From an uncultured Alphaproteobacteria bacterium (GTDB taxonomy: Bacteria > Pseudomonadota > Alphaproteobacteria > RF32 > CAG-239), in contig CASFQO010000011.1 in NCBI GenBank assembly GCA_949297145.1, positions 52,148 through 116,147 on the forward strand: a stretch of 64,000 bases of DNA, in the 5' to 3' direction. Shown here piece after piece: positions 1-56,445 of this stretch. The notes under the pieces are model-generated. The model was not told where the DNA came from. It saw nothing but the letters and a program-made list of their open reading frames with translations, and did not search any database. The stretch's first letter is position 1. Each line of letters opens with the position of its first letter. The position numbers were made by a program, and so were the translations under genes.

Positions 1-334
1 AACTTTCCAAATAGTCATTCCAAAACTTTGTCACAAGCTCTTCACAAAAGAGACGATTTTCCTCTTGTAACTGTCTGAAACGTTCATTTTCAACCTTTGC
101 TCTTGCTTGTTTTTGTTCTTGCGTTACATCCTCGTGCGTTGCTTGTTCTCGCATCGTTAATTCTTGCCAAACTTGCTCTAAATCTACTAATTCAGGGCTT
201 ACACTTCTTTGCCGTTTACATCTTTGTTGCCATTGGATTGATCCTCTACTTTTTTCGACTTCATCCAATATAACACCTATAAGTATCGCAACAATCCAGA
301 ACACTGGTAGAGAAAGAGTACATAAAACATCCAT
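1..334 (-). CDS. hypothetical protein with N-terminal TM helix and coiled coil (3' end outside window)
   Basis: Manual translation from ATG at 334: MDVLCTLSLPVFWIVAILIGVILDEVEKS..., open to the window edge; sigma70-like promoter upstream. Confidence 0.65.
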   Translation of the reverse strand, partial: MDVLCTLSLPVFWIVAILIGVILDEVEKSRGSIQWQQRCKRQRSVSPELVDLEQVWQELTMREQATHEDVTQEQKQARAKVENERFRQLQEENRLFCEELVTKFWNDYLES

Positions 335-377
335 AACATAAAAGTTTTTAAGTTCATAATAATTGTTAATTGACTTT

Positions 378-405
378 ATCTTAGCAGCGCTTCAACTTTT
401 GTCAA
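378..405 (-). promoter_or_regulatory. sigma70-like promoter TTGACA-N16-TAAGAT
   Basis: Direct reading of the minus strand about 45 nt upstream of ATG 334. Confidence 0.55.
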
Positions 406-430
406 GTTTTTTGTACCGATTTAAAAAGCA

Positions 431-457
431 AAACGCCCCTTTTTTCAAGAGGCGTTT
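431..457 (-). terminator. intrinsic terminator-like hairpin
   Basis: AAACGCC..GGCGTTT inverted repeat with A-tract on its left, downstream of ORF 527..934. Confidence 0.6.
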
Positions 458-46032: not shown

Positions 46033-48333
46033 TTAATATCTGATATGTTTCAGAACAATCGTCGACAACGGCGGCAAAACAAGCTCAATAGAGTGCGGAC
46101 GACCATTGATACTCTCGTCAGAAGCAATCATTTCACCTTCGTTCTTAACACCGCTTCCCCAGTAATTTTTGTCATCACTGTTAAAGATTTCCTGATAAGC
46201 CCCGCTATCCGGAACACCAATCTTAAAGCCATGACGAACCACCGGCGTAAAGTTGCATACAACAATCATATAGTTATTGTAGTCATGTCCGCGACGAATA
46301 TAAGAAATGACACTGTCGTTTGCATTAGCATGGTCAATCCATTCAAAGCCTTTGCTATCAAAATCCTCTTCATAAAAAGCAGAGTTTCCTTTATACATCA
46401 AGTTCAAATCGCGCACACAATTTTGCATTCCTTTATACATCGGATATTGCAACAAGTGCCATCTCAAACTTTCATTAGAGTTCCACTCCCAATCTTGTCC
46501 GAATTCGCATCCCATAAAGAGTAATTTTTTACCAGGGTGTGTCCACATAAATCCGTAATATGCACGAAGGTTTGCAAACTTTTGCCATTCATCTCCCGGC
46601 ATTTTACCGAGCATAGAGCCTTTACCGTGAACAACTTCATCATGGGAGATTGGCAAGATAAAGTTTTCATTAAAGGCATAGAGCAAACCGAATGTCAATT
46701 TACCATGTTCATATTTACGATAAACTGGATCTTTGCTGATATAGGTAAGGGTATCATTCATCCATCCCATATTCCATTTATAACCAAATCCAAGTCCGCC
46801 CATAGATGTCGGACGAGAAACCATCGGCCATGCGGTAGATTCTTCCGCACAAGTCATAACTCCCGGACAAGTTCCATAGCACAATTCGTTCATCTTACGA
46901 ATAAAGGCGATAGCTTCAAGGTTTTCATTTCCGCCATAGATATTCGGGATCCACTCACCTGGTTTACGAGAATAATCCAAATACAACATAGAAGCAACGG
47001 CATCCACGCGCAACCCATCAATATGATATTCTTTCAACCAATAAAGCGCACTGGAGCAAAGAACATTGCTAACTTCTGTTCTGCCGTAGTTATAAATCTT
47101 TGTCCCCCAATCTTTGTGTTCACCTTTACGCGGATCGGCATGTTCATAAAGATGCGTACCGTCAAATTCAACCAAGCCGTGAGCATCTTTCGGGAAGTGA
47201 GCCGGAACCCAATCCATAATCACGCCGATATTAGCTTGGTGAAATTTATCAATCATATATCTAAAGTCATCCGGATTACCAAAACGCGATGTCGGGGCAA
47301 ACAATCCGGTAACCTGATATCCCCACGAAGCATCTAACGGGTGTTCACATACCGGCAAGAATTCAACATGCGTAAAGCCCATATTCATAACATATGGAAC
47401 AAGACTGTCTGCCAATTCACGATATGTCAAAAACTCAGAACCGTTTTCGCCTTTTCTGCGCCAAGAACCGAGATGCACCTCATAAATAGACATCGGTCTG
47501 TCAAAACTGTTATAAGAAGCACGATACTTCATCCATTCATTATCATTCCAGTTATAGTGATTAAGATCAAAAACAATAGATGCCGTATTCGGTCTGACTT
47601 CAGAATAAAACGCCATCGGATCACTCTTGGTTAAGATATAACCTTCATGAGTTTTGATTTCATATTTATAATATTCACCTTCTGTAATATTTGGAATAAA
47701 GATATCCCACACACCGCAGTTATAGTGTTTGCGCATCACATTAACGCGCCCATCCCAATTATTGAATGCGCCGATAACGGAAACACGTTTTGCATTTGGC
47801 GCCCATACAGAAAAGCCAACACCTTTAACCCCATTAATTTCCATAATATGAGCACCAAGTTTTTTATACAATTCCAAGTGATTACCCTCAGCAAAGAGAT
47901 ACTCATCAATATCACCTAAAATAGATGGGAAAGAATAAACATCCTCTTCCTCATAAGTTTCACCTTTATCATTAGTTATTCTAAACTTATAGGAAAAGTT
48001 ATCTGTGTTCATCACGCCGAGATTAATTTGATAAAAACCACGTTTATCCAACATCGTCATCAAGCCGAGTGAATTACCGTTTTTATCTAATAGTTCAATA
48101 GATTTTGTTTTTGGTTTATATGCACGAATAAAGACTTCTTTAGAACCTTTATCCCGATGAATGCCCAACACCGCCATCACGTTTTCATAATCGCCGTTAA
48201 TAATGCAGTCCATCTCATTTTTTGACAGTAAATTTTTCATCTCTCCCCCATTGCAGGAACTCAAAACCGCAAAGTCATGCGGCGTATTATTATTCTCTGA
48301 TTTTACAGTTTGATTTTTAACTGTGTTGGCCAT
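46033..48333 (-). CDS. glgB: 1,4-alpha-glucan branching enzyme
   Basis: WAPNA, YEVHLGSW, DWVPAHFP, DGLRVDAVASM, AEEST, SHDEVVHGK. Confidence 0.97.
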   Translation of the reverse strand: MANTVKNQTVKSENNNTPHDFAVLSSCNGGEMKNLLSKNEMDCIINGDYENVMAVLGIHRDKGSKEVFIRAYKPKTKSIELLDKNGNSLGLMTMLDKRGFYQINLGVMNTDNFSYKFRITNDKGETYEEEDVYSFPSILGDIDEYLFAEGNHLELYKKLGAHIMEINGVKGVGFSVWAPNAKRVSVIGAFNNWDGRVNVMRKHYNCGVWDIFIPNITEGEYYKYEIKTHEGYILTKSDPMAFYSEVRPNTASIVFDLNHYNWNDNEWMKYRASYNSFDRPMSIYEVHLGSWRRKGENGSEFLTYRELADSLVPYVMNMGFTHVEFLPVCEHPLDASWGYQVTGLFAPTSRFGNPDDFRYMIDKFHQANIGVIMDWVPAHFPKDAHGLVEFDGTHLYEHADPRKGEHKDWGTKIYNYGRTEVSNVLCSSALYWLKEYHIDGLRVDAVASMLYLDYSRKPGEWIPNIYGGNENLEAIAFIRKMNELCYGTCPGVMTCAEESTAWPMVSRPTSMGGLGFGYKWNMGWMNDTLTYISKDPVYRKYEHGKLTFGLLYAFNENFILPISHDEVVHGKGSMLGKMPGDEWQKFANLRAYYGFMWTHPGKKLLFMGCEFGQDWEWNSNESLRWHLLQYPMYKGMQNCVRDLNLMYKGNSAFYEEDFDSKGFEWIDHANANDSVISYIRRGHDYNNYMIVVCNFTPVVRHGFKIGVPDSGAYQEIFNSDDKNYWGSGVKNEGEMIASDESINGRPHSIELVLPPLSTIVLKHIRY

Positions 48334-49010
48334 AACTATAACTCCAAAATATAAACAAAAAATAGGTTACAAAATATGTATAAAAACAATTCAAAAAAAT
48401 TGCAAGAATTTTATTAAATTTTTTCACCACGACAAACTTCATTTTCCTTTTAAAAACAACCGGATTGCGCTTTAAAAGCCTTGCACAAATTTTCCATTCA
48501 AGAGCACTCAGATTCCATGCATTTTATCACCACTATTATCTACTCATTTTTAGCGTCAAAAACAACGATAAAAATAGATATATTTTTTGTATTTTTTTAT
48601 AACACATACGCTCTTTTTTGGATATTATCTCTTATATAAATCTTATTATTTGTATTTTCGACTTTTTTTTTGCACAAGAAACAAAAAAAAATTTTTTTAT
48701 TTTTTACATTCATTTTTTTTAAAATTTTCAGCCCCCAAAAATCTCATTTTTTTATCTTTTTAAAAATTCAAAAAAACAAATTAGAATCAAATAATTAAAG
48801 ACAATAATTTTATACTTTTTCACCCCTAAAAAAATCCCCTTTTTGAGCTTCAAAAATTTTTTTATTTTCCCCTCTTTTTTTAATCATTTTTTAATCTATT
48901 TATGTATATACAATAACTAACAAGCAAAGCGAAGAAAATTTCGTATTTACAAAATAAAAATTATATTTATACTTAACCTTGTTTTATAACAAATTATTTG
49001 GAGAATTGAA

Positions 49011-49226
49011 ATGACATTCAATGAAAATTTAATTAGAGAAGCTGCTTACTACAATTGGCAGAATGCTGGTTGCCCGTTTGGTCAGGATGAAAAGTTCTGG
49101 AACATGGCAATTGAACAAATCTATGGTTCAAAAGCTACCAAGTCTTGCTGCAGCACATCTTCTTCTTCTAAGAAGACAGCTTCTTCAAGCAAAAAAACTT
49201 CTTCTAAATCAAAATCTAAGAAGTAA
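49011..49226 (+). CDS. DUF2934-like small protein with Ser/Lys-rich tail
   Basis: IREAAYYNW...G.P.G.D..FW..A; SD GGAG; terminator at about 49246..49280. Confidence 0.8.
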   Translation: MTFNENLIREAAYYNWQNAGCPFGQDEKFWNMAIEQIYGSKATKSCCSTSSSSKKTASSSKKTSSKSKSKK

Positions 49227-49395
49227 GATTTTTTATTAAGAGCTTAAAAAAAGACCACCTGTAATTAGGGTGGTTTTTTTATATCTAAAATTCGCTTAAC
49301 AACGCAAATAAATTTATCATATTTACTGAAAATTAAGCTCTGAAATTCTAAACTATCTGCACCATAAAAACAATTCTAAAAAAGCGATAAAAAAG

Positions 49396-50622
49396 ATGAA
49401 AACCCTAAACCCGTTAAACCGACTAGACATTGCCTGTTTTTTACGTTCACAGCTATATTTGGCGCCGGTTCTTTTGCTCTTTTATCAGCAAAACGGTTTA
49501 ACCATCGCAGACTTTGTTTTATTCCAAGGAATTTTTCAATTAACCGGAATTGTTTTTGAAATACCATGCGGTTACATAGCCGATGTCATATCAAAGAAAA
49601 AAGTTCTGATTTTAGCTTTCACATGTTTCTTTTTAAGAGCCGTTTTGTGGCTAAGTTTTTCAGGGATATACATCGTCCTTTTAGGTGAACTTTTCAATGC
49701 CTTATCGCGTGCATTTTTATCCGGCGTTTATGACAGCTATATATACGATTACCTCAAAAATGAAAACAAGACAAAGCGTATGCTGAAAGAATGCGGACGC
49801 ACCAATTTTGCCATGTCATCGGGTGCTATGTTTGCGGCCATTTTCAGTGCAACATTATATGCCCATTATGGCACAACCGTTCTTCTCGGATTAGAATTCT
49901 GTTTAACACTCATCAGTATTCTCTTATTAACCTCTCTGCCAAATCCCCCTTCAGCTCGCCCGCATGCTAAAACGATTAAAGAGAAATTTATAGAAATAAA
50001 AGATACAACCGTTACCACCATAAAAAACAAAAACATCAACGTTTATATTTTATATTCAGCCCTTTTGTTTTCGACCACATCACTCTTCTGCTGGTGTTTC
50101 CAACCCTTGCTAAAAATGTCATCTGCACCGGTCATCATGTTCAGTTCCATTTATGTGATAAATCATGCGTTGCGGGCGACTTTTTCATACTACGTCAACA
50201 AGCTTAAAAAATTCTTTGGATTTAATCGTTTGCTGGTTGTAACAACATTTCTGTGCTTATATTCTTTTGCTTGCATGATTTTGAGTTTTTATTTCAAACA
50301 ACCGAATGTTGCATTCGTATGCTTAATATTCGTTTGTATCGGAATTGGGTTTCAACTAGCCTTTGCAATCGCCAACATCAATCACATCCACGACTATGCT
50401 CTTGAAGAGACCAGAGCCACCATCTCCTCGGTAAACAATATGCTTCAGCAAACGATTTCCGGACTTTCTTTAATTTGCTTTAAGTTCGTAATTGCCCCGG
50501 ACAACGAAACGAGTGGCCTAAGCTTTGCCTCTGCTTTCTCGTTATTTGGTGTATTTTACATGAGTTTATTTATTTTCTTGCTATACATCATATACCAACG
50601 CTCCCGCGAACCGGTCAAATAG
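49396..50622 (+). CDS. MFS transporter
   Basis: About 12 TM helices; FEIP.G.IAD...KK motif A; RATI.S. Confidence 0.88.
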   Translation: MKTLNPLNRLDIACFLRSQLYLAPVLLLFYQQNGLTIADFVLFQGIFQLTGIVFEIPCGYIADVISKKKVLILAFTCFFLRAVLWLSFSGIYIVLLGELFNALSRAFLSGVYDSYIYDYLKNENKTKRMLKECGRTNFAMSSGAMFAAIFSATLYAHYGTTVLLGLEFCLTLISILLLTSLPNPPSARPHAKTIKEKFIEIKDTTVTTIKNKNINVYILYSALLFSTTSLFCWCFQPLLKMSSAPVIMFSSIYVINHALRATFSYYVNKLKKFFGFNRLLVVTTFLCLYSFACMILSFYFKQPNVAFVCLIFVCIGIGFQLAFAIANINHIHDYALEETRATISSVNNMLQQTISGLSLICFKFVIAPDNETSGLSFASAFSLFGVFYMSLFIFLLYIIYQRSREPVK

Positions 50623-52179: not shown

Positions 52180-52545
52180 ATGTTTATACTACTCACCATC
52201 GGAATTGTCATCTTAAAATTTTTAGCGCTGGCTGTCGTCGGCCTATTCTTCGCTGAAGATTTGGAGCTGACACGTTCCGTCGGAGGTGCTGTTTATTCAG
52301 CTTATTTCACCATAGGATTATGTACTTTTTTTGCATTATTTTTCTTCGTTTTGGGGAAAAGGCTTTTCTGGCTGATTATAGCAGGCGTACTAGGGTTCTT
52401 TTACTTAGGAATGTATAATGGCGCCCCAGGCATAAAAGATGTACACGCCAGCAATGATTTAAAAAGCCGATATTTTAAGGATACAGACACTTTCATCGCG
52501 CGTATGCATGATGTGGTCAAAATTATTCAAAAAGATAAGCAGTGA
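52180..52545 (+). CDS. hypothetical membrane protein
   Basis: 121 aa, about 3 TM helices, SD AAGGA. Confidence 0.7.
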   Translation: MFILLTIGIVILKFLALAVVGLFFAEDLELTRSVGGAVYSAYFTIGLCTFFALFFFVLGKRLFWLIIAGVLGFFYLGMYNGAPGIKDVHASNDLKSRYFKDTDTFIARMHDVVKIIQKDKQ

Positions 52546-52546
52546 C

Positions 52547-52584
52547 AAAAAAATCCTCGTTTTAACATCAAAACGAGGATTTTC
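52547..52584. terminator. bidirectional terminator
   Basis: AAAATCCTCGTTTT..AAAACGAGGATTTT between convergent genes. Confidence 0.8.
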
Positions 52585-52602
52585 AATAACAACACCGTTT
52601 AG

Positions 52603-53139
52603 TTAGAATTGACCACCAAACTTTTCTTCATAAGCATCACGAGCTTCTTCAATCAATTTTTTCGCCTCACTTGGCCCCAAAAATTTTTCAATAGTAACTT
52701 GCTTTTTTTCCAAAACTTTATAATCTTCAAAAAAGCGTTGCAACATTTTCAAAATATGCGGCGGTAATTGAGATATATCCGTAAACACATTATACTCCGG
52801 ATCGTCCTCATGGATAGCAATAATTTTATCATCAGCTTCACCGCAATCAATCATTTTCATCACCCCGATAGGTCTTGCACGCATAATAGAAAGCGGCACA
52901 ATCGGTTCTTGACCTAAAACAAGAATATCAAGCGGATCATTGTCTTCACAATACGTTTGCGGAATAAAGCCGTAGTTTGCCGGATAATGCACGGAAGAAT
53001 AAAGAATACGATCCACTTTTAACAATCCGCTTTCTTTATCCAATTCATATTTAACTTGAGACCCTTTCGGCACTTCAATAATCGCCGGAATGATATTCGG
53101 AAACTGTGAATAATGTTTTACTTGATGCCACGGATGCAT
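52603..53139 (-). CDS. ppa: inorganic pyrophosphatase (family I)
   Basis: [28 protein letters not shown]. Confidence 0.96.
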
Positions 53140-53286
53140 AACAACTCTCCTAAAAAACTCAAAACAGCAAGAAAATAATCTTTGTCATATTTTTTGTCAA
53201 GAGAAACTTTTTCAGAAAAAGACATTGCTATCTAAAGAAAAGCGTGTTAGAGTGTAAGGATTAGTAATATACTCTGGAGAATAAAA

Positions 53287-54822
53287 ATGAAAACATATAC
53301 CCTAGACCAATTAATTAATTTGGATTCTGGCGGAATAGACATCGTACAAAAAAATAACGACGACGATGCCCAAAATTTTTTGGAAGAAAAAAAGGAAGAA
53401 CTTTCATTTTTAAGTCCCCGAGAGTATGAGCAACTCAAAGAATACTATACAGACACGATGGAAAAATATCGCCTGATATATGAGGCCATCGTTTCAGGTT
53501 TTTCCACTTCGAACAACCCTGGTTTTCCGGAATATATTTATAACATCAATCTCAAAGACGGTAGCATAGAAAGAGACAAAAACGGCCGTTTAATTAGCTA
53601 TTCAACAGAAGTTTTAGCGCCCTGCTCAACTTCAATGCTGCACTACATCAACCATGAATGTAATGATGTCTTTGTTATCATCCCGCCGATTAAAAGCGAG
53701 CAGCGTACTGCTGAAAAGATGATTTCGGAGTGTCTTCGCGAATATGATGCGGAAAAAGAAAACAATCTGAATAAATTTACAACAGACCCAACTTTTAATC
53801 CGGAAGATGAGCCGGAATTGCCTTTCCCAACAACAAATGATAAAAAGCAAACTTCATCTTGCCAAACAGCCTTGCGGCTCAACGATTTATTTGATGAAGA
53901 AAAGACCTCCGACGCTCTCATCAACATCGCTAAGAAAGATATTATTCCGCACGATATTTACCGCTTATCCATCACCTCCAAATACCCAAATGATTTGGAA
54001 GAGCTGATAAAAGAATTGGAAGCCAAATTTCCACCGTACATTTCTTTTGAAAAAGGCGAGCGAAACCTTTATAAAAAGAATTTGAGTGAAAATACGCGTA
54101 ACTATTTTGATATCAAAAAGACCGCTCGAATTACCATTCCCGAAACCGGAAAAACATTTTTCATTGAATTTCAATTCAAACAAACATTAATGTTTTTCGC
54201 CCACCTTCGTTCGCACGCTGCATATGAAGAGTATCGGATATTAGAAGCCAAATATCAGGCCTTAAAAGATGCAGAACAAAAAAATAAAAACAAGAACGTC
54301 ACCACACGCCAAAAATTACAGCAACTCAAAAAACAGCGTGATGAAAAAAAAGAATTATGTTTACAAATCCACCGCAACGCCGTCCATCAAAGCAATTTAT
54401 ACTTGATGCATAAAATTCAGTGGCTGGATGACAATGCCAGAGGCCTTCATCGCGTGCCGGACTATACGGATGACAAATACAAACATTCGGTAGATACCAT
54501 TAAGAAGAACTATATCGTAGAAAGCTATGAACCTTTTGACGGAGCCACCGCTTTTACAACAACGCCGGATGAATATCTGAATAAATCTTTTTATTTAAAG
54601 ATGATAGGCATTCTTCCGGAAAGTTTTGATGAACTAGGCAAAAATGCAAAAGACCATGTCATGAAAGCATGGAACACCTTAACACCGGCCGATTTAAAAG
54701 ATTTTACGCGTATTAGCAAAACAGCCGTCAAATACCAAGACGTCATCAAAGACATTCAAAAAAAGCGCAAGATGATGGATTCCGTGACACTCTTAAACAC
54801 TTTTGCCCAAAACGAACGATAA
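53287..54822 (+). CDS. stand-alone RelA/SpoT-like nucleotidyltransferase (alarmone synthetase-like) protein
   Basis: Ordered motifs IKSEQRTAEK, HDIYRLSI, NYFDIK, IEFQFK, SHAAYEEYR. Confidence 0.7.
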   Translation: MKTYTLDQLINLDSGGIDIVQKNNDDDAQNFLEEKKEELSFLSPREYEQLKEYYTDTMEKYRLIYEAIVSGFSTSNNPGFPEYIYNINLKDGSIERDKNGRLISYSTEVLAPCSTSMLHYINHECNDVFVIIPPIKSEQRTAEKMISECLREYDAEKENNLNKFTTDPTFNPEDEPELPFPTTNDKKQTSSCQTALRLNDLFDEEKTSDALINIAKKDIIPHDIYRLSITSKYPNDLEELIKELEAKFPPYISFEKGERNLYKKNLSENTRNYFDIKKTARITIPETGKTFFIEFQFKQTLMFFAHLRSHAAYEEYRILEAKYQALKDAEQKNKNKNVTTRQKLQQLKKQRDEKKELCLQIHRNAVHQSNLYLMHKIQWLDDNARGLHRVPDYTDDKYKHSVDTIKKNYIVESYEPFDGATAFTTTPDEYLNKSFYLKMIGILPESFDELGKNAKDHVMKAWNTLTPADLKDFTRISKTAVKYQDVIKDIQKKRKMMDSVTLLNTFAQNER

Positions 54823-54933
54823 CAAGCCATAAAAGTTCCCATAAAATAGTCATCTTTTCTATTGACTAAAATCCAAAAAAAACATATCAAAGGAAAGTAA
54901 TACTTATTTTTATGAACTCTAAAATGAACTATT

Positions 54934-55371
54934 ATGGAACAAAAAAAGACAACTGAGCCGCATTTTCCATTAAAAATTTTGGTAAGAACCGCTAAAGAAA
55001 ACTTCGTGCAAAAAGACGCACCTTCCGCAGAAGACATCAAACTAGGCATATGTGTTGAACAAAATGCCTGGTTGCTGGTCAAAATTCCAACAGATCGTTG
55101 CTCGCCGGAAAGTTTCTTAAAAACCGTTGCCAATCTGACAGGATTACCGGTTCACTATCCGAAAGCAGAAGATTTTGCTAAATTAAAAGAAGTTTTTCCC
55201 ATGGTAACAGAAATCTGTGCAACCCTAAAAAAGGATGAGCGAACAAACCGTGGATTAAGCTATTCTCACATAGACAATTTTAATGAAGAAGAAGAGCGAG
55301 TTTTGCAAAATTTTCTAACCAATCATCGACCGAGTTATATTCGTCTTGTGATTAACTTAGATGAGCTATAA
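54934..55371 (+). CDS. hypothetical protein
   Basis: 145 aa; TTGACT -35 element upstream; hairpin at about 55429..55458. Confidence 0.65.
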   Translation: MEQKKTTEPHFPLKILVRTAKENFVQKDAPSAEDIKLGICVEQNAWLLVKIPTDRCSPESFLKTVANLTGLPVHYPKAEDFAKLKEVFPMVTEICATLKKDERTNRGLSYSHIDNFNEEEERVLQNFLTNHRPSYIRLVINLDEL

Positions 55372-55543
55372 ACGGAAAACAAGCCTTAATGCCACCCAAG
55401 AAAAAGGGCCGCATTTTATGTAAAAACAAAGGAGCCTCTATAAAAAGAAGCTCCTTTTATTTTAGCAAACGACATTTTTCAACCGTAAAATTTTTCATAA
55501 AAAAGATTGAAAAAAATGATTTTTTTTGTAAAATAACTTCATT

Positions 55544-55858
55544 ATGAGAAAGTTTATTGCCATATTGATGATAATCACGTTTACGACATCCATTTTTGAT
55601 ATCTTGGACGCCAATGAACTGTGCTTTGATAACGGCAAACAAATTTTCTCCACCGACAATCCAAACGCCGATAACGAATATGACGGCTTGAACGATAACG
55701 GCTTCCAATATACCACTGTAGAAAATTTCTTTTTACCCTATTTTCCGCAAGTCTACAAAGAAAAGCGTGTTTTGCAGCATAAGATTTCAGCTCTAAACAC
55801 GACCTTATTTTTTTATAACTACATCCCCGCAAATAACGAACAACCTCCGAGAGTTTAG
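55544..55858 (+). CDS. small exported protein ending in QPPRV
   Basis: Signal-like N-terminus MRKFIAILMIITF. Confidence 0.55.
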   Translation: MRKFIAILMIITFTTSIFDILDANELCFDNGKQIFSTDNPNADNEYDGLNDNGFQYTTVENFFLPYFPQVYKEKRVLQHKISALNTTLFFYNYIPANNEQPPRV

Positions 55859-55923
55859 TCTTATTTTTCCCATAAATATCGGGATACAAATTTTTGGTAA
55901 AGACTAAACAAACGAGGACGACC

Positions 55924-56445
55924 ATGCAACAAGAATTGCATCTTTTTATCATATGGAGCAAAGGACTCTATTTGCAAGAACCTATTATTGATGATATAAA
56001 AAAGCACTTTGAAATCAAACAAATATTTAACTGCAACTGGGAAAAGCAAAGTTTTGCCTCACACTTATCGCGTTTTTACGGCAAAAAGCTCTTCCAGTGT
56101 TATAAAAAAGAAAAACGCTGCGGCAACGACAACTTTTTAGCCATTGTTGTGATAGACAAACACCCTCACTACAAAGATGGGTTAAACACCAACACGGCAG
56201 AGCTAAAATATAAATACAGAAGCTGGTATGGAGGTGGATTTTTAATACACGCCAGCGATACGGCAGAAGAAGGCGCAGAGAATCTCAAAACCTTAACAGG
56301 TTTAAGCGTACCGGAATTTTTGGCGCGTTATCCCAAAGATTGGGATGGAAACCATATTTCTCAATTAGAAGAAAAGCCGCTTGCCTTAGCACCAAAAGAA
56401 AATTTTTATCTCAAATTGCTCCATAGCTTCAGTATCTTTTTTTAA
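55924..56445 (+). CDS. NDP-kinase-fold-like hypothetical protein
   Basis: ELHLFIIW, LSRFYG, KYR...GG..IHASDT; start ATG 55924 after GAGGA. Confidence 0.6.
   Translation: MQQELHLFIIWSKGLYLQEPIIDDIKKHFEIKQIFNCNWEKQSFASHLSRFYGKKLFQCYKKEKRCGNDNFLAIVVIDKHPHYKDGLNTNTAELKYKYRSWYGGGFLIHASDTAEEGAENLKTLTGLSVPEFLARYPKDWDGNHISQLEEKPLALAPKENFYLKLLHSFSIFF

What the first reader, a model, noticed from the sequence alone, without database searches (positions are those of the whole stretch)
53287..54822. Stand-alone RelA/SpoT-like synthetase with an inserted segment, coiled coil and effector-like tail
Seen: five synthetase-like motifs in the right order between about 53689 and 54237 (IKSEQRTAEK, HDIYRLSI, NYFDIK, IEFQFK, SHAAYEEYR), with a roughly 70-aa insert between the first two. 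No HD hydrolase, TGS or ACT domain is recognisable. Known: these match the RxKxxxSxxxK, DxxxxR, GYxSxH, EIQIRT and HxxYK elements of RSH synthetases, and lone domains include toxSAS toxins and the secreted (p)ppApp synthetase Tas1. Inference: a divergent alarmone synthetase or pyrophosphokinase, possibly exported. It is divergent from ppa, and the downstream 145-aa orphan is an untested immunity candidate.
Basis: partly seen in the sequence, partly recalled or inferred. Interest (0 to 1): 0.75.

Follow-up and report, generated by a model that had tools for sequence, protein, structure and literature searches.

The report
Hidden alarmone-synthetase-like enzyme, gut Alphaproteobacteria
This gene encodes a very divergent relative of the small enzymes that make bacterial stress-signal nucleotides, found only in one family of small-genome gut bacteria and missed by the standard family model, so it adds a new branch to a well-studied enzyme group, with its substrate still unknown.

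Summary
The ORF 53287..54822 (+) is real and encodes 511 aa. Their key residues are nearly invariant in 115 distinct homologues that fall to about 19% identity. Pfam RelA_SpoT and sequence searches of the PDB miss the protein. A confident AlphaFold2 model (pLDDT 88) matches small alarmone synthetases best: RelP Z 11.6 with 182 of 184 residues aligned, then RelQ, an exported SAS, CapRel and Tas1. A profile alignment and a bridging signal-peptide SAS give the same motif register.

The family is chromosomal and usually single-copy. It was found in 92 of 199 sampled genomes of one family of 1.1-2.0 Mb gut Alphaproteobacteria, and in only two other genomes of a 401-genome phylum sample.

The proposed immunity gene has no support. 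orf145 evolves fast and has no homologue in 5 of 10 other loci of the genus. No export signal was found.

In other genera the gene lies between flagellin genes and a Sel1-repeat gene, probably the ancestral position.

Verdict: a new, architecturally distinct branch of RSH-fold pyrophosphokinases. Its product is unknown, and it is probably not a toxin-immunity pair.

The parts
53287..54822 (+). ORF of 511 aa ('X511'): divergent RSH-fold synthetase-like protein
   Evidence: ORF; 82 homologues of about 500 aa; model pLDDT 88.4, pTM 0.84; SAS structures are the top matches
53287..53502 (+). N-terminal helical region, residues 1-72. Its last helices fall inside the stretch aligned to SAS structures (model 47..379)
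   Evidence: It is conserved across the wide family. The first 96 residues also match the N-terminus of a protein that carries TPR repeats (P0093)
53533..53682 (+). Beta-rich segment, residues 83-132, ending in the strand that leads into motif 1. G92 is invariant
   Evidence: strands 83-85, 116-121, 127-132; G92 in 113 of 115
53689..53718 (+). Motif 1, IKSEQRTAEK (K136, R140, K144): candidate ATP-phosphate-binding basic motif
   Evidence: Invariance. It lies at a predicted strand-to-helix junction. Equivalence to RxKxxxSxxxK was not confirmed by alignment
53770..53934 (+). Family-specific insert, residues 162-216. Residues 168-190 are predicted disordered, followed by two short helices. Its length varies widely among relatives
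   Evidence: pLDDT below 50 for 168-190; this site is shorter or more than 100 aa longer in distant members
53950..53973 (+). Motif 2, HDIYRLSI (D223, R226): aligns with the Mg-coordinating Asp strand DIxxxRI of RSH synthetases
   Evidence: hhalign register; bridging protein alignment; D223 in 113 of 115 and R226 in 114 of 115
54100..54117 (+). Motif 3, NYFDIK (Y273, D275, K277): aligns with GY(R/Q)S(L/I)H. Y273 takes the place of the acceptor-stacking Tyr
   Evidence: The role of the Tyr is taken from Kurata et al., passages read
54163..54180 (+). Motif 4, IEFQFK (E294, Q296, K298): aligns with (E/I)EIQIRT, the catalytic Glu/Gln strand
   Evidence: E294 in 114 of 115 and Q296 in 108 of 115
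54211..54237 (+). Motif 5, SHAAYEEYR (H310, Y313, R317): aligns with the HxxxY(K) element
   Evidence: bridging protein EHALYER; extended alignment, low confidence; Y313 in 115 of 115
54184..54444 (+). Long antiparallel helical hairpin, residues 300-386 (the 'coiled coil')
   Evidence: helices 300-332 and 338-386. Many unrelated coiled-coil matches cover only this part
54481..54819 (+). C-terminal helical domain, residues 399-511, of no recognised fold. It ends in Arg
   Evidence: domain model pLDDT 83.9; best Z 4.6; C-terminal Arg in 63 of 114 family members against 5.9% of genome ORFs
52603..53139 (-). ppa, inorganic pyrophosphatase: the divergent upstream neighbour, syntenic within the genus
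   Evidence: Pfam 4e-62; adjacent in 8 of 8 loci, own locus included
54934..55371 (+). orf145: a real but fast-evolving gene restricted to part of the genus. It is not a conserved partner
   Evidence: No Pfam, NCBIfam, PADLOC or PHROGs family
55428..55457 (.). 12-bp-stem hairpin just after orf145: a terminator-like site that would close an X511-orf145 transcript
   Evidence: consensus scan only

Best explanation
X511 is a cytoplasmic, chromosomally inherited and highly divergent member of the RelA-SpoT-homologue (RSH) synthetase-fold pyrophosphokinases. In effect it is a new, long-branch type of small alarmone synthetase.

Inferred mechanism. ATP binds with its phosphates held by the invariant basic residues K136, R140 and K144 and by Mg2+ on D223. 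An acceptor with a purine base stacks on Y273. E294 and Q296 on the central strand promote attack of the acceptor's 3'-OH on the beta-phosphate of ATP. This transfers pyrophosphate and releases AMP. The most likely acceptor is a guanine or adenine nucleotide, which would give (p)ppGpp or (p)ppApp. The 3' end of tRNA cannot be excluded.

The family-specific parts probably set oligomeric state or gate activity. These are the variable insert, the long helical hairpin and the C-terminal helical domain with its conserved terminal Arg.

Shown here: the fold, the motif register for motifs 2 to 5, residue conservation, taxonomic distribution and gene context. Inferred: catalysis, the donor and acceptor, regulation, and cytoplasmic location.

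It is not part of a conserved toxin-immunity pair with orf145. The genome's single long RSH, which has an HD domain, is the only candidate found to remove a guanosine alarmone.
For: Fold. The AlphaFold2 model has pLDDT 88.4 and pTM 0.84. In Foldseek against the PDB, every listed hit down to rank 26 is a small alarmone synthetase (best E 3.2e-4, probability 1.00), followed by CapRel. In the VIA-align wide search the matches are RelP 6fgk_A (Z 11.6, rmsd 3.0, 182 of 184 residues), 6ewz (Z 11.0), RelQ 5dec (Z 10.8), an exported SAS 8vx3 (Z 8.7), CapRel 7ztb (Z 8.3), Tas1 6ox6 (Z 7.9) and Rel 8acu (Z 7.5).

Sequence. hhalign of the wide family alignment against an RSH synthetase alignment built here gives P 3.6e-4. 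It places D223 on the D of DIxxxRI, YFDIK on GYQSIH, and IEFQFK on IEIQIRT. The register is the same with 115 sequences (P 1.8e-3).

Bridge. A 258-aa signal-peptide protein from another genome of the phylum matches the family profile (E 7e-6 per genome; 1.9e-8). It also matches Pfam RelA_SpoT (2.3e-5, 25.1 bits), RelP (1.2e-5) and Tas1 (3.8e-3) in the same register.

Other support. Catalytic-position residues are conserved in 106 to 115 of 115 sequences. The ESM Atlas feature search returned 6 clusters of which some members carry RelA_SpoT (score 0.92; the family is on 12% of members of the listed cluster), a weak lead only. The roles of the conserved Asp and Tyr in SAS enzymes come from passages of Kurata et al..

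Context. The gene is usually single-copy. It was found in 20 of 24 and 20 of 23 sampled genomes of the genus. The ppa synteny is stable. Neighbours in other genera are housekeeping genes. There were no phage, plasmid or viral-contig hits and no PADLOC or PHROGs family. The genome holds one 719-aa long RSH with HD_4 and RelA_SpoT domains.
Against: Pfam RelA_SpoT, NCBIfam and sequence or profile searches of the PDB do not detect the protein. Membership therefore rests on predicted structure plus weak profile signals: hhalign probability is only 37% and 15%.

The close-family alignment alone gave nothing against RSH (first run). Motif 1 could not be aligned significantly.

Some canonical positions are replaced. 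The S and H of GYxSxH are D275 and K277. The R and T of EIQIRT are K298 and Q299. The Ser of RxKxxxSxxxK would be R140. The substrate or the chemistry could therefore differ.

No residue-level superposition was available, so active-site geometry was not checked. No RNA run that holds the stretch was listed, and no biochemical data exist. The patchy distribution among genera (0 of 30, 0 of 10 and 19 of 43 in some) is also what an accessory toxin or effector would show.
Confidence: 0.7

Rival explanations
1. A self-restrained toxic SAS, either toxSAS-like or a CapRel-like fused toxin-antitoxin. The synthetase domain would be growth-arresting, by (pp)pApp synthesis or tRNA 3'-pyrophosphorylation. 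It would be held off by its own C-terminal domain or by a neighbouring gene product until a trigger such as phage infection releases it.
For: CapRel is among the structural matches over a long span (7ztb_A, Z 8.3, 226 residues aligned, model 22..457). An extra C-terminal domain of unknown fold is present. The distribution among genera is patchy. In 8 loci of 8 other genera the gene is tightly coupled to the next gene, with gaps of -38 to +21 bp in 7 of 8 by the coordinates. Jimmy et al. treat conserved bicistronic architecture as the mark of toxSAS (passages).
Against: No small adjacent ORF is conserved in the genus of the window. orf145 is missing in 5 of 10 other loci. The tightly coupled neighbour elsewhere is a Sel1-repeat protein with a signal peptide, and its orthologue in this genome is unlinked. 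There is no PADLOC or PHROGs family and there are no phage, plasmid or viral-contig relatives. Synteny is stable and inheritance looks vertical within genera. The C-terminal domain alone has no match at Z 5 or more.
Confidence: 0.12
2. An exported alarmone synthetase or effector. The protein would leave the cell, through the bacterial family's type IV secretion system or, ancestrally, through the flagellar export apparatus, and act outside the cell or in another cell.
For: Exported alarmone synthetases occur as isolated loci without immunity genes and use several secretion routes (mBio 2025, passages read). The nearest sequence-detectable RelA_SpoT relative carries a signal peptide. In other genera the gene follows flagellin genes on the same strand, and the tree suggests this position is ancestral. 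The C-terminus ends in Arg in 63 of 114 members against 5.9% of genome ORFs. A VirB4 gene is present in the genome.
Against: There is no signal peptide or hydrophobic N-terminus (sequence). No T6SS sheath gene, flagellin or FlhA was found in this 87%-complete genome. The gene is kept in 20 of 23 genomes of a genus where flagellin was found in 1 of 23. VirB4 is present in 197 of 201 genomes, so it does not co-vary with the gene. The net charge of the last 20 residues is ordinary (+0.99 against +0.45). The flagellins of these bacteria do not end in Arg.
Confidence: 0.1
3. A repurposed RSH-fold protein that no longer makes alarmones. It could be a nucleotidyl- or phospho-transferase acting on another substrate, or a non-catalytic nucleotide-binding regulator.
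For: Several canonical motif positions are substituted (D275 and K277 for S and H; K298 and Q299 for R and T). The branch is very long and Pfam does not detect the protein. Large family-specific additions are present.
Against: The residues that define catalysis in SAS enzymes (the Mg-binding Asp, the stacking Tyr, the catalytic Glu and Gln, and the basic cluster) are the most conserved positions of the whole family. A non-catalytic scaffold would not be expected to keep them.
Confidence: 0.08

Closest known systems
RelP / RelQ (SAS2 / SAS1) small alarmone synthetases of Firmicutes (PDB 6fgk, 6ewz, 5dec, 5ded)
   Same: They are the best structural matches (Z 10.8-11.6, nearly the whole SAS chain aligned). 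Both are a lone synthetase domain without a hydrolase. The Asp, Tyr, Glu-x-Gln and His-x-x-Tyr elements come in the same order and register.
   Different: Sequence identity is 10-15%, and Pfam RelA_SpoT finds nothing. X511 has about 300 extra residues: N-terminal helices and a beta segment, a variable 55-aa insert, a long helical hairpin and a C-terminal domain. The S and H of GYxSxH and the R and T of EIQIRT are replaced. The lineage differs too: one family of gut Alphaproteobacteria.
Exported alarmone synthetases (SaEAS 8vx3, RelV/VpEAS) and Tas1/Apk1 (6ox6)
   Same: The SYNTH fold is shared (Z 8.7 and 7.9). The locus is isolated and has no conserved immunity gene, as described for the Sec-type exported enzymes. 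The nearest sequence bridge is a signal-peptide SAS that also matches Tas1.
   Different: X511 has no signal peptide and no LXG, PAAR or XopAD-type module by Pfam. No T6SS sheath gene was found. No Tis1-like partner is present.
toxSAS toxins (FaRel, FaRel2, PhRel, PhRel2) and the fused CapRel defence protein (7ztb)
   Same: The fold is shared. CapRel aligns over 226 residues. Like CapRel, X511 is a single polypeptide with a C-terminal extension.
   Different: There is no conserved bicistronic toxin-antitoxin arrangement in the genus of the window. There is no mobile-element or defence-island context. The C-terminal domain has no structural match at Z 5 or more.
Long RSH (Rel/SpoT) of the same genome (719 aa, contig C9)
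   Same: The synthetase domain has the same fold class (8acu Rel, Z 7.5).
   Different: The long RSH has HD_4 and RelA_SpoT domains detected at 4e-51 and 7e-44. X511 has neither detectable by sequence, and it has no TGS or ACT domain.

Membership tests
RSH superfamily, SYNTH domain (Pfam RelA_SpoT PF04607) | Match to the PF04607 profile at or above its gathering score (27 bits) | tested here: not met
   No PF04607 match at E <= 1 for X511 and none in 23 relatives at E <= 0.1. The bridging 258-aa protein reaches 25.1 bits.
RSH superfamily, SYNTH domain (Pfam RelA_SpoT PF04607) | SYNTH fold: a mixed beta-sheet flanked by helices, as in RelP, RelQ and Rel | tested here: met
   The AF2 model has pLDDT 88.4. 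Every listed Foldseek hit down to rank 26 is a SAS (best E 3.2e-4). VIA-align gives Z 11.6, 11.0 and 10.8, with 182 of 184 RelP residues aligned.
RSH superfamily, SYNTH domain (Pfam RelA_SpoT PF04607) | Mg2+-coordinating Asp on the DxxxxR strand | tested here: met
   D223 aligns with the RSH Asp in hhalign and through the bridging protein. D223 is present in 113 of 115 sequences and R226 in 114 of 115. This is alignment-level evidence only.
RSH superfamily, SYNTH domain (Pfam RelA_SpoT PF04607) | Acceptor-stacking Tyr of GYxSxH | tested here: met
   Y273 aligns with that Tyr. It is Tyr in 106 of 115 sequences, otherwise F, H, N or T. The S and H of the motif are D275 and K277.
RSH superfamily, SYNTH domain (Pfam RelA_SpoT PF04607) | Catalytic Glu (and Gln) of EIQIRT | tested here: met
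   E294 and Q296 align with the E and Q of IEIQIRT. E294 is present in 114 of 115 sequences and Q296 in 108 of 115.
RSH superfamily, SYNTH domain (Pfam RelA_SpoT PF04607) | Basic ATP-phosphate motif RxKxxxSxxxK | tested here: inconclusive
   K136, R140 and K144 are invariant or nearly so. They sit at a strand-to-helix junction. The profile alignment of this region alone was not significant (P 0.08 and 0.2).
RSH superfamily, SYNTH domain (Pfam RelA_SpoT PF04607) | ATP-dependent pyrophosphate transfer to a 3'-OH | not testable with these tools
   This needs an enzyme assay.
toxSAS toxin-antitoxin modules | Conserved two- or three-gene operon with a neighbouring antitoxin gene | tested here: not met
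   orf145 homologues are present in 5 of 10 other loci of the genus. HAD follows directly in L004 and L005. In 8 loci of other genera the downstream gene is a Sel1-repeat protein with a signal peptide, and its orthologue in this genome is unlinked.
toxSAS toxin-antitoxin modules | Toxicity that depends on the synthetase active site and is neutralised by the partner | not testable with these tools
   This needs expression assays.
CapRel-type fused toxin-antitoxin defence proteins | C-terminal antitoxin domain like that of CapRel, folding back on the synthetase | tested here: inconclusive
   Full-length CapRel aligns at Z 8.3 with rmsd 6.8. The C-terminal domain modelled alone has no match at Z 5 or more among 48,161 chains. 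Domain packing in the model could not be inspected.
Exported alarmone synthetases / Tas1-type effectors | A recognisable export module (Sec signal peptide, LXG, PAAR or T6SS linkage, XopAD) | tested here: not met
   The N-terminus is hydrophilic. Pfam finds no such domain. No VipB gene was found in the 87%-complete genome. T4SS linkage is uninformative because VirB4 is in 197 of 201 genomes.
Exported alarmone synthetases / Tas1-type effectors | Adjacent cognate immunity gene (for the T6SS and T7SS types) | tested here: not met
   Same evidence as for the antitoxin row.

The most novel reading that the evidence does not exclude
The family began as a flagellin-linked alarmone-synthetase-like enzyme. 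It would have been transcribed with late flagellin genes and translationally coupled to a periplasmic Sel1-repeat protein. In that setting it would either tie nucleotide second-messenger synthesis to flagellar assembly or motility, or be a non-flagellar cargo of the flagellar export apparatus. In non-flagellated genera such as the window's it was kept, moved next to ppa and evolved fast. Its conserved C-terminal Arg would mark an autoinhibitory or partner-docking tail. Either way it would be a sixth kind of RSH biology, beside long RSH, housekeeping SAS, toxSAS, secreted effectors and exported EAS.
Probability: 0.15. Interest if true: 0.8.

Novelty: new variant of a known kind. Interest (0 to 1): 0.58.

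Why it matters
RSH enzymes have been catalogued by profile searches: 30 SAS subfamilies in Jimmy et al. 2020 (passages read). This family escapes the Pfam profile and shows up only through predicted structure, so such catalogues may be missing deep branches.

It sits in uncultured, small-genome gut Alphaproteobacteria, where nothing is known about stringent signalling. It combines the catalytic core with three unexplained additions. In several genera it is wedged between flagellin genes and a Sel1-repeat gene.

Finding its product, whether (p)ppGpp, (p)ppApp, pyrophosphorylated tRNA or something else, would show how far the substrate range of this fold extends. It would also show whether alarmone-type chemistry is linked to motility in these bacteria.

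Two full-text searches found no paper on such a family: 'alarmone synthetase' with 'Foldseek' gave 2 unrelated papers, and 'small alarmone synthetase' with 'flagellin' and 'Alphaproteobacteria' gave 0 papers. Supplements of the RSH census papers were not opened, so an unnamed listing there cannot be excluded.

Tried and rejected
Sequence-level detection gave nothing for X511: Pfam, NCBIfam, PADLOC and PHROGs, and PDB by phmmer and by profile. hhalign of the close-family alignment A1 against RSH also gave nothing (probability 0.2%).

Mobile-element origin. tblastn of a distant homologue found nothing in the phage collection or the plasmid collection. The viral-contig scan gave 75 pattern matches, none confirmed.

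Complex prediction of X511 with orf145 returned 'no answer' (ipSAE 0.00 and 0.02, controls not run). It is not used for or against binding.

No RNA holder was listed for window 52500-55600, so expression was not examined.

The C-terminal domain alone had a best structural match of Z 4.6. That does not show that the fold is new.

Motif 1 alone against the RSH profile was not significant.

T4SS co-occurrence test: VirB4 is in 197 of 201 genomes, so it has no discriminating power.

Flagellum dependence is rejected by the genus tallies: g1 has the gene in 20 of 23 genomes and flagellin in 1 of 23; g231 11 of 11 against 0 of 11; g236 0 of 10 against 10 of 10.

Flagellin-tail mimicry is rejected. 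The local flagellins end in ...SVLSLF or similar, not Arg.

A positively charged T4SS-type tail has no support, since the net charge of the last 20 residues is ordinary.
Full report
**1. The observation**

The ORF 53287..54822 (+) encodes 511 aa. These correspond exactly to 53689-54237. Seventy-seven residues separate K144 from H222.

Pfam and NCBIfam give no family for the protein at E <= 1 beyond noise, so no HD, TGS or ACT domain is present. The upstream gene on the other strand is an inorganic pyrophosphatase (Pfam 4e-62).

**2. A real, conserved family**

A word-indexed search found 82 homologues, nearly all 480-530 aa and all unnamed. The few source names say Alphaproteobacteria MAGs. 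An exhaustive profile search of 1.84 billion representatives found 50 proteins. They include full-length relatives at 16-31% identity, and none has a Pfam domain.

In the 27-sequence wide alignment the invariant columns are G92, K136, R140, K144, D223, R226, E294, H310 and Y313. In 115 distinct members the motif residues are kept in 106 to 115 sequences.

**3. Fold**

AlphaFold2 on the 42-sequence alignment gave pLDDT 88.4 and pTM 0.84. Only residues 168-190 fall below 50.

In Foldseek against the PDB, every listed hit down to rank 26 is a small alarmone synthetase (best E 3.2e-4, probability 1.00), followed by CapRel.

VIA-align, which does not depend on Foldseek, ranks the matches as follows:

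| Structure | Z | Note |
|---|---|---|
| RelP 6fgk_A | 11.6 | rmsd 3.0, 182 of 184 residues, model 47..379 |
| RelP 6ewz | 11.0 | |
| RelQ 5dec | 10.8 | |
| Exported SAS 8vx3 | 8.7 | |
| CapRel 7ztb | 8.3 | |
| Tas1 6ox6 | 7.9 | |
| Rel 8acu | 7.5 | |

The other rows at Z 7-9 are unrelated helical proteins that cover only the hairpin 299-379.

**4. Motif register**

I built an RSH synthetase alignment from 30 long RSHs, 5 short RSH-like ORFs and the bridging protein, all taken from genomes of the phylum. hhalign of the wide family alignment against it gave P 3.6e-4 (probability 37%). It aligned DIYRLSI with DIMAFRI, YFDIK with GYQSIH, and IEFQFK with IEIQIRT. With 115 sequences the register was the same (P 1.8e-3).

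A 258-aa signal-peptide protein of another genome links the two families. It matches this family's profile (7e-6 per genome; 1.9e-8). It also matches Pfam RelA_SpoT (2.3e-5, 25.1 bits against a cut-off of 27), RelP (1.2e-5) and Tas1 (3.8e-3), in the same register.

Passages of Kurata et al. state that the Asp (Mg2+) and the Tyr (stacking on the acceptor) are highly conserved in SAS enzymes and essential in FaRel2. D223 and Y273 take those places.

Motif 1 is weaker. Read against the long RSH of this genome, IKSEQRTAEKM lines up with EKSPYSIWRKM (K, S, x, x, S/R, x, x, x, K, M), and it lies at a strand-to-helix junction. A profile alignment of that region alone was not significant, and the greedy alignment placed it elsewhere at zero confidence. 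I therefore rate motifs 2 to 5 as verified in register and motif 1 as plausible.

**5. Family-specific parts**

- N-terminal helices and a beta segment, residues 1-132.
- An insert, residues 162-216, whose length varies greatly among relatives.
- A long antiparallel helical hairpin, residues 300-386.
- A C-terminal helical domain, residues 399-510. Modelled alone (pLDDT 83.9) it has no structural match above Z 4.6.
- The last residue is Arg in 63 of 114 distinct members, against 5.9% of 1068 ORFs of the genome. The charge of the tail is ordinary. I have no explanation for this.

**6. Where the gene lives**

The window's genome is 1.41 Mb in 16 contigs and 87% complete. The gene was found in:

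- 20 of 24 other sampled genomes of the genus;
- 92 of 199 genomes and 15 of 22 genera of the order sample, with every positive in one bacterial family;
- 2 further genomes of a 401-genome phylum sample.

Presence is patchy between genera (0 of 30, 0 of 10, 19 of 43) but near-complete within others (11 of 11, 10 of 10, 7 of 7). The gene is usually single-copy.

Nothing was found in phage, plasmid or viral collections, and there is no defence or phage family.

The genome has one long RSH with HD_4 and RelA_SpoT domains. No VipB, flagellin or FlhA gene was found. A VirB4 gene is present, but it is in 197 of 201 genomes of the order sample.

**7. The immunity candidate**

ppa is adjacent to the gene in 8 of 8 loci, the own locus included.

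orf145 is a real gene, with 44 invariant columns in 6 sequences. It is 37% identical where X511 is 73% identical. It is missing from L004 and L005, where the HAD hydrolase follows directly. It is also missing from three further loci of the genus. In all, homologues were found in 5 of 10 other loci. It matches no family.

A conserved toxin-immunity pair is therefore not supported. The complex prediction gave no answer and is not counted either way.

**8. An unexpected context elsewhere**

In 8 loci from 8 other genera the homologue is followed on the same strand by a Sel1-repeat protein of about 380 aa with a signal peptide. The gaps are -38 to +21 bp in 7 of the 8. In 4 of them it is preceded by one to three flagellin genes. 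The coordinates show flagellin within about 2.5 kb upstream on the same strand in at least 10 more genomes.

On a maximum-likelihood tree these loci lie on both sides of the midpoint root, and two of them are sister to the clade that holds the window's protein. The arrangement is therefore probably ancestral. The window's genus sits on a long stem branch of 1.89 changes per site.

Presence of the gene does not follow presence of flagellin. The Sel1 orthologue of this genome is unlinked, on contig C6. The linkage may reflect co-regulation or only inherited gene order.

**9. Reading**

Most likely (0.7) this is an active, cytoplasmic RSH-fold pyrophosphokinase of a new, architecturally distinct branch. 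It would use ATP to pyrophosphorylate the 3'-OH of a purine nucleotide, or less probably of tRNA, with its additions serving regulation.

The rivals are a self-restrained toxic SAS (0.12), an exported synthetase (0.10) and a repurposed or non-catalytic protein (0.08).

It fails the Pfam membership test but meets the fold and catalytic-residue tests. I therefore file it as a new variant of the RSH synthetase kind and assign it to no named subfamily.

Two literature searches found no description of it. Supplementary tables of the RSH census papers were not opened.

Noticed in passing
window 54817-54819 (last codon of X511); family-wide: The protein ends in Arg. So do 63 of 114 distinct family members, mostly as -GR or -ER, against 5.9% of 1068 ORFs of the same genome. 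A further 15 have Arg as the second-last residue. The net charge of the tail is ordinary. This is unexplained.
   Followed up: partly
L063-L070 (8 genera), e.g. L064:2570-9276: The gene order is flagellin gene(s), then the X511 homologue, then a Sel1-repeat protein with a signal peptide, all on one strand. The last two are tightly coupled, with gaps of -38 to +21 bp in 7 of 8 loci. The tree suggests the order is ancestral.
   Followed up: partly
G000 contig C8:41733-42251, and 197 of 201 genomes of the order sample: A single VirB4-like ATPase gene of about 810-830 aa is near-universal in these 1.1-2.0 Mb genomes. That suggests a vertically kept type IV secretion system in the bacterial family.
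   Followed up: no
P0093 (441 aa): Its first 96 residues match the N-terminus of X511 (E 5.5e-29), and the rest carries TPR repeats. The N-terminal module may therefore be a separable domain.
   Followed up: no
P0078 (439 aa): Its N-terminal 104 residues match the ThyX family (Thy1, 6.5e-31) and the rest matches X511 positions 156-505. This is probably a gene-call or assembly join on a 2.2-kb contig, not a real fusion.
   Followed up: no
L012:1432-2208 (-), genome G183 of the same phylum: A 258-aa protein with a signal-peptide-like N-terminus scores just under the RelA_SpoT cut-off and matches RelP and Tas1. It looks like one of the Sec-exported alarmone synthetases described in 2025. It lies next to an outer-membrane-type ORF.
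   Followed up: partly
L077:4812-6236 (-), genome G354 (0.9 Mb, same class, other family): A 474-aa distant homologue matches profile positions 27-83 and 128-300. It sits next to a lysyl-tRNA-synthetase-like gene (my reading of its sequence, not scanned) in a very small genome outside the main bacterial family. It has a very long branch.
   Followed up: no
window 55544-56445: Two more orphan ORFs, of 104 and 183 aa, lie between orf145 and the HAD hydrolase. They are present only in the closest relatives (L006, L007) and match no family, so this stretch is a variable islet downstream of X511.
   Followed up: partly
window 48000-49500: G+C falls to 0.27, against about 0.40 on either side. A 71-aa ORF with a Ser/Lys-rich tail (49011-49226) follows.
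   Followed up: no
genome G472 of the order sample: One genome carries two homologues of different subtypes (E 2e-156 and 8e-58), so the family has at least occasional paralogues.
   Followed up: no
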